Assembly: GCA_964106645.2 (NCBI GenBank)
Contig: OZ067039.1
Direction: 5' to 3' (one strand)
Source of the DNA: Podarcis pityusensis
Taxonomy: Eukaryota
Length of the DNA stretch: 64,000 nucleotides
Shown in pieces: positions 16,615 through 17,484 of the stretch (the first letter of the stretch is position 1; every line of letters begins with the position of its first letter). Made by a program: the position numbers.

Positions 16615-17484
16615 CTAAAGGAAAAGAAAAAAAGGGGAGACGGCATCAGGAATATAGATTCTAGTGTGGAAATGACTGATGGGATATCAGAAACTATGAA
16701 CAAGTACAGAAGTCTCAGGGCTTTTCTCTCAAAGTAAGTCAAAAGCAGATCATTGATCCTATGAAGATATTCTAGTAATCCCTGTGTTCAGGACAAGTAA
16801 TAGCTCCTTTGGGGAGTGCTCACAAGTCACCCAATGTGAGCAGGCCGGGCTTGAAAGCAACAGCCCTCTATACAATCACACAATGGCAGTGTGGATCAAT
16901 TTTCCAGTCAGCCATGCCCTTATCCAGGATACTCCATTCCACCCCCTCCTTCATTTTCTGTTCCTCTTCCCCAACAATCTGTCTGCATCCTGTTGTCTCC
17001 ACTGACCATACTCAGCCTTCATTGGACTGTTTTGGGATCCACCCCCTCCCTTTATGGATTTTTTTCAAATTATTTTTTTGTACTTCTGCATGCCTTGTGA
17101 CTGTCCAAGCATGCCACTACCTCCCCCTTGTTTGTGGATGGTGCATTTTTTTACTACACACTCGGAGAACAAGATCACAATTAGCATACAGGGTACTGTC
17201 TCTCAAATTGGATGTACTTAATATCATCCACCATGGCTTTAAAAACATGGTTAGACTGCTCCTTCTTGAATGTGTTTAAAGTGTGTACATGGCCATCAGC
17301 ACACCTTCAGGACAAGTAAAAGACGGTACCACTTCACAAAATTATGCAGTTTGTGAAGTGGTACCGTCTTTTACTTGTCCTGAATCTACTGTCAGTCCAC
17401 TTCACTGGATGACTCAAAGTTCTAGTACAAGAGAAGGAGAAAGGCTTCTCTCTGCCCATTTTCTTCACACCACACATTGTTTTA

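What the first reader, a model, noticed from the sequence alone, without database searches (positions are those of the whole stretch)
17306..17384. Perfect 35-bp hairpin written into a decayed CR1: template-switch signature and candidate de novo intronic miRNA
Seen: two 35-bp arms with zero mismatches around a 9-nt loop in FLT4 intron 22, inside a CR1 remnant that is otherwise heavily diverged. The right arm follows the CR1 sequence as I recall it, decay mutations included. The left arm sits where about 25 nt of unrelated CR1 sequence should be. Inference: the arm was copied recently, in one step, from the decayed neighbour. Established: short-range replication template switching creates such perfect inverted repeats and can give instant pre-miRNA stems; a stem of about 35 bp is Microprocessor-sized. 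The hairpin would be co-transcribed with FLT4.
Basis: partly seen in the sequence, partly recalled or inferred. Interest (0 to 1): 0.75.

Follow-up and report, generated by a model that had tools for sequence, protein, structure and literature searches.

The report
Perfect 35-bp hairpin in FLT4 intron
A flawless 79-base palindrome sits in an intron of a lizard's VEGFR3 (FLT4) gene; it is most likely a young copying accident that happens to have the shape of a microRNA precursor, with no function shown.

Summary
Arms 17306-17340 and 17350-17384 are 35 nt, 100% complementary, with a 9-nt spacer. That is far beyond chance: about 3e-15 expected, and shuffles give at most 11 bp.

The host gene is VEGFR3/FLT4 of a lacertid-like squamate, on the MINUS strand. 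The hairpin occupies nt 242-320 of a 1,011-nt intron that counts as intron 22.

The CR1 context got no support:
- no RT, endonuclease or transposase in 551 scanned frames;
- no relatives for the adjacent 166-codon frame;
- no similarity to genuine CR1 3' tails found elsewhere in the window;
- no octamer tail in the intron.

A canonical MITE insertion is disfavoured because there is no target-site duplication. It is not excluded: the geometry mimics Made1, and the arm's outer 17 nt recurs 519 nt away, starting exactly at the palindrome edge.

The best reading is a one-step templated fold-back copy (template switch). This is plausible but unproven, because no eukaryotic DNA collection was open for outgroup comparison.

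The miRNA idea rests on shape alone: the loop is 9 nt, 0 of 3 processing motifs are present on either strand, and no Rfam family matches. It is a new member of a known kind, of modest interest.

The parts
17306..17340 (.). Left arm of the palindrome (35 nt); on the sense (minus) transcript this is the 3' arm
   Evidence: 100% complementary to 17350-17384
17341..17349 (.). 9-nt spacer / apical loop (AUUAUGCAG on +, CUGCAUAAU on the sense strand)
17350..17384 (.). Right arm of the palindrome (35 nt); 5' arm on the sense transcript
16615..17625 (-). Host intron (1,011 nt; intron 22 of a 30-exon FLT4 model), donor GTAAGC, acceptor AG after a pyrimidine tract; the hairpin occupies intron nt 242-320
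17626..17720 (-). Upstream exon (95 nt, ...[31 protein letters not shown])
16492..16614 (-). Downstream exon (123 nt, [10 protein letters not shown]... catalytic-loop exon)
16787..16803 (+). 16/17 copy of the outermost 17 nt of the arm, in left-arm orientation, starting exactly at the position equivalent to the palindrome edge; forms a 16/17 inverted pair with the right-arm tip 564 nt away. Relation to the hairpin unresolved
   Evidence: (0 of 500 intron shuffles); not above shuffles under laxer scoring
17397..17405 (+). 9-mer CCACTTCAC of the left arm repeated 12 nt right of the hairpin (borderline; 12 of 500 shuffles)

Best explanation
The palindrome is a young, local inverted duplication made in a single templated event. 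During DNA synthesis a nascent strand folded back (or jumped to the opposite strand), copied about 35 nt of the neighbouring sequence in reverse complement, and then returned to its template. This is a short-range template-switch mutation. It left two identical arms around a 9-nt spacer, sharp edges and no target-site duplication.

The hairpin lies 242-320 nt into a 1,011-nt intron of FLT4/VEGFR3 on the transcribed (minus) strand, so every pre-mRNA carries a 35-bp perfect RNA stem. Most likely this stem is removed with the intron and degraded, and the element is selectively neutral. It has the size of a Microprocessor substrate, but nothing shows that it is processed.

Shown: the structure, its non-randomness, the host gene, strand and intron, the absence of a TSD, and the absence of CR1 or transposase signals.

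Inferred: the one-step origin, the youth, and neutrality. Which arm is the copy is unknown.
For: - Arms are 35/35 identical, and pairing ends abruptly at both edges.
- No flanking direct repeat of 3 bp or more lies within +/-3 nt of the edges. The same test found a 6-bp repeat around another inverted repeat in the window.
- There is no second copy of the whole arm, its inner 18 nt or the 500-bp flanks in 64 kb.
- Both arms keep their CpG in an intron with CpG o/e 0.13 (6 CpGs, 2 of them in the arms). With an assumed 1-2.5e-9 substitutions/site/year (recalled, not from a call), the mean wait to a first arm mismatch is 6-14 My.
- Passages of PMC10710096 say template switching gives perfect stems in one event and needs no pre-existing repeat. 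Its criteria for a new miRNA-like hairpin (stem 30-55, central loop) are met here.
- A passage of PMC7954356 gives copied lengths up to 128 nt, with 65% of events lengthening the sequence.
- A passage of PMC5068794 puts Pol-theta copying at about 1 error per 30 bp with inserts of about 10 bp, so an error-free 35-nt copy fits replicative switching better than repair.
Against: - No parent sequence could be examined, so the defining test (hairpin absent in the ancestor) was not done.
- The copied length of 35 nt is far above the median of 12 nt (MAD 4.5) for great-ape events.
- PMC10710096 reports template-switch events depleted in introns.
- The geometry (35+9+35) is almost that of Made1 MITEs (37+6+37).
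- The outer 17 nt of the arm recurs at 16787-16803 (16/17), beginning exactly at the palindrome edge, as a transposon terminus would.
- A family at Made1 density (7,850 copies in the human genome; by my arithmetic about one per 400 kb) would usually show no second copy in 64 kb. The single-copy result is therefore weak evidence.
Confidence: 0.5

Rival explanations
1. It is a palindromic MITE, or the end or an internal hairpin of a larger DNA transposon, comparable to Made1: two long terminal inverted repeats around a few internal bases, inserted into the intron by a transposase.
For: - Made1 is 80 bp, with two 37-bp TIRs plus 6 bp, and gave rise to mir-548 (PMC1784062 passages). This element is 79 bp, 35+9+35.
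- The arm's outer 17 nt recurs at 16787-16803 (16/17), with similarity starting exactly at the edge. A weaker 15/17 match lies at 46310: two extra matches against 0.37 expected.
- Other MITE-like inverted repeats exist in the window.
Against: - There is no target-site duplication of any length at or within 3 nt of the edges. An element with 0 mismatches in 70 arm bases should still have one.
- The inner 18 nt of the arm has no other copy.
- No transposase domain was found in 551 frames.
- The 16787 match does not extend past 17 nt and was not above shuffles under laxer scoring.
- The 46310 site has no inverted partner within 3 kb.
Confidence: 0.2
2. The same fold-back copying occurred during double-strand-break repair: a 3' end snapped back on itself and was extended by polymerase theta before end joining, rather than at a replication fork.
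For: The legend of S7 Fig in PMC5068794 says snap-back replication gives insertions in reverse-complement configuration relative to the flank. A short spacer, sharp edges and no TSD fit equally well.
Against: In the same paper, inserts average about 10 bp, the error rate is about 1 in 30 bp, and snap-back is 'a minor part'. By my arithmetic, an error-free 35-nt copy would occur in roughly 0.3 of such extensions.
Confidence: 0.1
3. It is a functional structured RNA kept perfect by selection: an established lineage-specific intronic miRNA, or another hairpin element of the FLT4 transcript.
For: The stem is 35 bp with unpaired flanks on the sense strand, the length preferred for pri-miRNAs (PMC10710096 passage). 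In that paper, 81 of 99 intragenic template-switch miRNA loci are sense-intronic.
Against: - No Rfam family reaches its gathering score in the window. The 12 sub-threshold hits over the hairpin are generic (best 41.8 bits against 245).
- The loop is 9 nt.
- Basal UG, apical UGU/GUG and a correctly placed CNNC are all absent on both strands (motif definitions recalled).
- Selection on an RNA stem tolerates G-U pairs and mismatches, so perfect DNA-level identity points to youth rather than constraint.
Confidence: 0.07
4. It is an assembly or sequencing artefact: a small fold-back chimera carried into the consensus.
For: Nothing from the calls points to this. It cannot be excluded without reads.
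Against: The palindrome is short and embedded in unique sequence with intact flanking exons and splice sites. From general knowledge, known fold-back read artefacts are usually much longer.
Confidence: 0.05

Closest known systems
Template-switch-mutation hairpins, including the TSM-born primate miRNA loci (PMC10710096; general model PMC5453318, PMC7954356)
   Same: It is a perfect inverted copy of adjacent sequence with sharp edges and a stem within the 30-55 nt class, with a central loop, in the sense orientation of a host-gene intron.
   Different: Those cases were called from parent-child sequence comparisons, and here no ancestor was available. The host is a squamate rather than a mammal, and no small-RNA evidence exists. 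The 35-nt copy is long relative to the median of 12 nt.
Made1 MITE / hsa-mir-548 family (PMC1784062)
   Same: Nearly identical architecture: an ~80-bp near-perfect palindrome with ~35-37-bp arms and a 6-9-nt centre, forming a very stable hairpin when transcribed.
   Different: Made1 is a multicopy mariner derivative. That its insertions carry TA duplications is recalled. Here there is no duplication, no second full copy in 64 kb and no related transposase.
Native 3'-UTR hairpin of CR1 LINEs (PMC4316615 passage)
   Same: Genuine CR1 3' ends do occur in this window.
   Different: The native CR1 stem seen at 29886-29923 is short and imperfect (-22.6 kcal/mol for 86 nt, z -0.57) and is followed by tandem octamers. 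The hairpin has no octamer tail and no similarity to those tails.

Membership tests
Template-switch mutation (TSM) hairpin | Reverse-complement copy of immediately neighbouring sequence, perfect or near-perfect, with sharp switch points | tested here: met
   35/35 complementary, and pairing stops at both edges
Template-switch mutation (TSM) hairpin | Parent/ancestral sequence lacks an equally long hairpin at the same position (criterion 1 in PMC10710096) | not testable with these tools
   No eukaryotic DNA collection was open. The genome-contig scan (prokaryotes) gave 0 matches
Template-switch mutation (TSM) hairpin | New stem 30-55 nt with the loop in the central third (criteria 2-3 in PMC10710096) | tested here: met
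   35-nt arms with a central 9-nt loop
Canonical pri-miRNA / miRNA gene | About 35-bp stem with single-stranded basal flanks | tested here: met
   35 bp, with immediate flanks unpaired in the MFE structure
Canonical pri-miRNA / miRNA gene | Unstructured apical loop of 10 nt or more (PMC10710096 passage) | tested here: not met
   The loop is 9 nt, which is marginal
Canonical pri-miRNA / miRNA gene | Processing motifs (basal UG, apical UGU/GUG, CNNC about 4-7 nt past the basal junction); enhancers rather than strict requirements, definitions recalled | tested here: not met
   0 of 3 on the sense strand and 0 of 3 on the + strand (CNNC on + only at flank positions 2, 13 and 16)
Canonical pri-miRNA / miRNA gene | Discrete ~22-nt 5p/3p reads with 2-nt overhangs | not testable with these tools
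   No small-RNA data available
Canonical pri-miRNA / miRNA gene | Membership of a described miRNA family | tested here: not met
   0 Rfam families at gathering; best 41.8 bits against 245
Palindromic MITE (Made1-like) | Two long terminal inverted repeats around a few internal bases | tested here: met
   compare
Palindromic MITE (Made1-like) | Target-site duplication flanking the element | tested here: not met
   only 2-bp matches at shifted edges (chance level). The control inverted repeat at 60106-60193 shows a 6-bp repeat
Palindromic MITE (Made1-like) | Multiple dispersed copies | tested here: inconclusive
   No second full arm in 64 kb, but a 17-nt terminal match at 16787. The window is too small to judge copy number
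CR1 LINE remnant | ORF2 (RT/endonuclease) relics | tested here: not met
   0 RT or endonuclease hits in 551 of the 1,020 stop-to-stop frames of 36 aa or more. The 166-aa frame next to the hairpin has 0 relatives. Power is low for short 3' fragments
CR1 LINE remnant | 3' UTR with short hairpin followed by octamer microsatellite | tested here: not met
   No octamer in intron 22. The profile built from two in-window CR1 tails finds nothing within the intron, 16615-17625
CR1 LINE remnant | Nucleotide similarity to a CR1 consensus | not testable with these tools
   No repeat library (Dfam/Repbase) on hand. Only in-window tails could be compared (best E 0.6)
FLT4 / VEGFR3 (host gene) | Ig-domain and split tyrosine-kinase exons with best matches to VEGFR3 | tested here: met
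   domains; top hit named VEGFR3, Podarcis raffonei, 96%; 29 exon-sized matches, 9 of them at 100%

The most novel reading that the evidence does not exclude
The hairpin is a just-born, lineage-specific small-RNA precursor. It would have been written in one templated step into the sense strand of FLT4 intron 22 of a lacertid and already be cut by Drosha/Dicer, or by Dicer alone as an endo-siRNA-type perfect hairpin. That would be a live, datable example of miRNA birth by template switching outside mammals, inside the master receptor gene of lymphatic development.
Probability: 0.07. Interest if true: 0.6.

Novelty: new member of a known kind. Interest (0 to 1): 0.3.

Why it matters
If outgroup introns show a non-palindromic ancestor, this locus would be a clean squamate example of a full Microprocessor-length stem made in one mutational step. 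It would be young enough (0 mismatches) to ask what a newborn hairpin does before selection acts: whether it is processed, edited or ignored.

If it turns out to be a MITE, it would point to a recently active palindromic element family in lacertids with the same miRNA-seeding potential as Made1. Either way the biology is of a known kind. Without outgroup or small-RNA data it remains an ordinary, if striking, young palindrome in an intron.

Tried and rejected
- **Whole-frame six-frame translations for Pfam.** I used stop-to-stop frames instead.
- **Rfam** at gathering and at E up to 10 gave only generic sub-threshold hairpin matches.
- **ARAGORN,** run to look for a tRNA-like SINE head, found 0 genes in the window.
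- **The 166-codon open frame** abutting the hairpin, tested as a possible LINE ORF2 tail, had 0 Pfam hits and 0 relatives among 1.84e9 representatives.
- **CR1 comparison with in-window CR1 tails** gave no similarity.
- **Exact 24-mer scan of genome contigs** found 0 matches. That collection is prokaryotic only, so this says nothing about lizard copies.
- **A 598-bp element bounded by 16787-16803 and 17368-17384.** The flanks share no duplication (read), so I did not pursue it.
- **The 12/14 repeat 16810-16823 / 17612-17625**. By my arithmetic about 1.6 such pairs are expected in a 1-kb intron, so I treat it as chance.
- **Transposon-excision P-nucleotide palindrome.** Rejected, because that mechanism gives a spacer-free palindrome and here the spacer is 9 nt (reasoning only).
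- **Helitron 3' hairpin** (features recalled). On the sense strand, CTGA followed by T lies 7-11 nt past the stem (read). A 4-nt motif is at chance level, and a 35-bp, 40%-GC stem is far longer than the recalled 16-20 nt. Set aside and untested.

Full report
**Observation**

The window shows two 35-nt arms, 17306-17340 and 17350-17384, that are 100% complementary around a 9-nt spacer.
- Pairing stops abruptly at both edges (C at 17305 against T at 17385).
- This is the longest perfect short-spacer inverted repeat in the window. Five shuffles of the 64 kb reached only 9-11 bp, and the analytic expectation for a 35-bp perfect repeat with a spacer of 0-30 is about 2.6e-15.
- As RNA, the 139 nt around it fold at -73.9 kcal/mol on the + strand and -76.8 on the - strand, z about -12, with 0 of 200 shuffles folding as well on either strand.
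- The window has no N and no case masking.

**Host gene and strand**

Pfam scans of stop-to-stop frames show tyrosine-kinase exon pieces in descending order on the minus strand. The hairpin lies between the pieces matching profile positions 96-123 and 123-163. Ig and VEGFR-type domains lie further upstream on the same strand.

I searched single exons only.
- The largest Ig exon frame (28032-28583, minus) found 188 proteins at E<=1e-10 among 336 candidates. The top one is a cluster representative named VEGFR3 of Podarcis raffonei (96% identity), followed by VEGFR3 of other squamates, turtles and birds.
- The exon just downstream of the hairpin intron matches solved VEGFR2 and VEGFR1 kinase chains best (E about 2e-21).
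- A local tblastn of that named reference protein on the window gives 29 exon-sized matches on the minus strand, covering residues 20-1383. Nine of the 29 are 100% identical.
- The hairpin intron lies between match 21 (...FLASRK) and match 22 ([10 protein letters not shown]...). With one unmatched 5' exon, this is intron 22 of a 30-exon model.
- Splice signals are canonical: donor GTAAGC, and acceptor AG after a pyrimidine tract. The intron is 1,011 nt and the hairpin occupies intron nt 242-320.

The organism is a lacertid-like squamate. Nothing here was taken for human sequence.

**The CR1 claim**

I could not confirm it by any route open here.
- Of the 1,020 stop-to-stop frames of 36 aa or more, 551 were scanned. 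These were 135 frames of 36 aa or more in 13.7-22 kb at E<=0.05, and all 416 frames of 52 aa or more elsewhere at E<=0.001. None hit a reverse transcriptase, endonuclease or transposase. The hits were the kinase and Ig/VEGFR domains of the host gene, plus weak noise such as a 'PT repeat' from the translated microsatellite. Frames of 36-51 aa outside 13.7-22 kb were not scanned.
- A 166-codon open frame (16779-17276, +) ends 30 nt left of the hairpin and could have been an ORF2 tail. It has no Pfam hit and no relative at E<=0.001 among 1.84 billion representatives.
- A passage of PMC4316615 says the CR1 3' UTR carries a conserved hairpin and an octamer microsatellite. Using the octamer as I recall it, the window has 11 matches against 7.1 expected, which is not significant in itself. 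Two of the sites are tandem pairs, at 24514-24529 and 29928-29943, and none lies in intron 22.
- The tail at 29.7-29.9 kb has a 73%-identical sibling at 55362-55555 on the minus strand. So genuine CR1 3' ends are present to serve as comparators.
- Intron 22 matches neither tail (best E 0.6).
- An nhmmer profile built from the two siblings, run without filters, recovers the two seeds and one weak fragment at 18681-18781 (E 0.0064, in the neighbouring intron 21). Within intron 22 (16615-17625) it finds nothing; the nearest row is at E 3.9 inside exon 22.
- The native CR1 stem is short and imperfect (-22.6 kcal/mol for 86 nt, z -0.57).

Caveat: there is no repeat library here, most CR1 copies are short fragments, and the comparators cover only the last ~210 nt of one subfamily. 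The claim is therefore unsupported rather than disproved.

**Is it a mobile element?**

The architecture (35+9+35 = 79 bp) is strikingly like Made1, which passages of PMC1784062 describe as 80 bp with two 37-bp TIRs around 6 bp, the source of mir-548.

Against an insertion:
- No direct repeat of 3 bp or more lies at or within 3 nt of the edges. Only 2-bp matches were found, as expected by chance.
- The same script found a 6-bp repeat (ATGTGC) around the decayed 88-bp inverted repeat at 60106-60193.
- The whole arm, its inner 18 nt and the 500-bp flanks have no other copy in the window.

For a mobile origin:
- The outer 17 nt of the arm recur at 16787-16803 (16/17), in left-arm orientation, and the similarity begins exactly at the palindrome edge.
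- Against shuffles of the rest of the intron, this match scored 29 against 15.2 +/- 2.2, with 0 of 500 shuffles reaching it.
- Under a laxer scoring scheme on a 131-nt target, the same match did not exceed the shuffle maxima.
- Window-wide, there are two extra matches with up to 3 mismatches against 0.37 expected.
- A 15/17 match at 46310 has no inverted partner within 3 kb and is probably chance.

Made1 has 7,850 copies in the human genome. By my arithmetic that is about one per 400 kb, so a single-copy result in 64 kb says little. I therefore keep the MITE reading as the main rival rather than dismissing it.

**Most likely mechanism**

Identical arms, sharp edges, a short spacer and no duplication are what a one-step templated fold-back copy leaves.
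- Passages of PMC10710096 state that template switching during replication creates perfect stems in a single event, also at loci without prior repeats. They also state that new hairpins with 30-55-nt stems and a central loop are its signature.
- In great apes the copied segment has a median of 12 nt (MAD 4.5, maximum 128), and 65% of events lengthen the sequence (PMC7954356 passage). A 35-nt copy is in the long tail but inside the observed range.
- A repair-based version (polymerase-theta snap-back) gives the same reverse-complement configuration. However, the inserts average about 10 bp, with about 1 error per 30 bp, and snap-back is described as a minor class (PMC5068794 passages). That makes an error-free 35-nt copy somewhat less likely by this route.
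- On age: the intron is strongly CpG-depleted (o/e 0.13, 6 CpGs), yet each arm keeps its CpG. With an assumed neutral rate of 1-2.5e-9 per site per year (recalled), the mean wait to a first mismatch in 70 arm bases is 6-14 My, with a 95% bound of 17-43 My. So 'recent' means at most a few tens of millions of years.
- Which arm is the copy cannot be told from one sequence. The 9-mer CCACTTCAC of the left arm recurs 12 nt right of the hairpin (12 of 500 shuffles), which does not polarise the event.

**The miRNA candidate**

In favour:
- The stem is exactly the preferred 35 bp and lies in the sense strand of an intron. In PMC10710096, 81 of 99 intragenic template-switch miRNA loci have that arrangement.

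Against:
- The loop is 9 nt, where 10 nt or more is preferred (same passage).
- Basal UG, apical UGU/GUG and a CNNC at the canonical distance are all absent on the sense strand, and also on the + strand (motif definitions recalled).
- No Rfam family reaches its gathering score in the window.
- Of the 13 matches at E up to 10 in 17100-17600, 12 overlap the hairpin. All are far below threshold, for example 41.8 bits against 245 and 39.1 against 75.
- The same paper counts 3,705 template-switch clusters in human polymorphism data, but only 111 miRBase and 18 MirGeneDB loci explained by template switching. The prior that any one such hairpin is a working miRNA is therefore low.

The default fate is removal with the intron.

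**What stayed unchecked**
- The one scan made, an exact 24-mer in the prokaryotic genome contigs, found 0 matches.
- Orthologous introns, genome-wide copy number, repeat annotation, raw reads and small RNAs were all out of reach.
- I read passages only of the five papers cited. PMC5453318 and PMC8794818 I saw only as search listings. I opened no supplements. Table S1 and the datasets of PMC10710096 might refine the length and loop statistics quoted here.

**Verdict**

This is a real, non-random, probably young palindrome in FLT4 intron 22. It is best explained as a one-step templated inverted duplication (confidence 0.5), with a palindromic transposable element as the main rival (0.2). The CR1 frame is unsupported, and the miRNA reading rests on shape alone. 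It is a new member of a known kind, and I score its interest at 0.3.

Noticed in passing
window 29740-29943 (+), 55362-55555 (-), 24505-24529 (+), 18681-18781 (-): These are CR1-type 3' ends. Two siblings are 73% identical, each with a short stem followed by octamer repeats. A third site shares only the last ~22-25 nt plus tandem octamers.
   Followed up: partly
window 60106-60193: An 88-bp inverted repeat (39-nt arms, 77% complementary, 10-nt spacer) with the same geometry as the perfect hairpin, but decayed. It is bracketed by a 6-bp direct repeat ATGTGC three bases outside each arm, so it is MITE-like.
   Followed up: partly
window 47146-47278 and 4416-4563: Two further inverted repeats: 31-nt arms at 87% with a 71-nt centre, and 59-nt arms at 73% with a 30-nt centre. 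They look like decayed MITE- or SINE-type repeats. No clean duplication was found.
   Followed up: partly
window 17522-17595: An A-rich run, (AACC)x7.8 and a G13 homopolymer on the + strand. On the sense strand these read C13, (GGTT)n and a T-rich run, starting 31 nt downstream of the intron-22 donor site. It looks like the tail of a + strand retroposon whose body would include the hairpin region, but no SINE head or TSD was found.
   Followed up: partly
window 16787-16823 and 17612-17625: Next to the 17-nt copy of the arm tip lies a 14-mer (16810-16823) that matches the first 14 intron bases after the exon-22 donor site in 12 of 14 positions. Taken alone it is at chance level by my estimate, but it sits only 6 nt from the 17-mer.
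   Followed up: partly
window 16779-17276 (+): A 166-codon stop-free frame antisense to FLT4 intron 22, with no Pfam hit and no relative in 1.84 billion representatives. It is probably a chance open frame in C/T-rich sequence.
   Followed up: yes
window 9186-62792 (-): The window carries almost the whole FLT4/VEGFR3 gene: 29 exon-sized matches covering residues 20-1383 of a 1,383-aa reference. Only the first coding exon is unmatched.
   Followed up: yes
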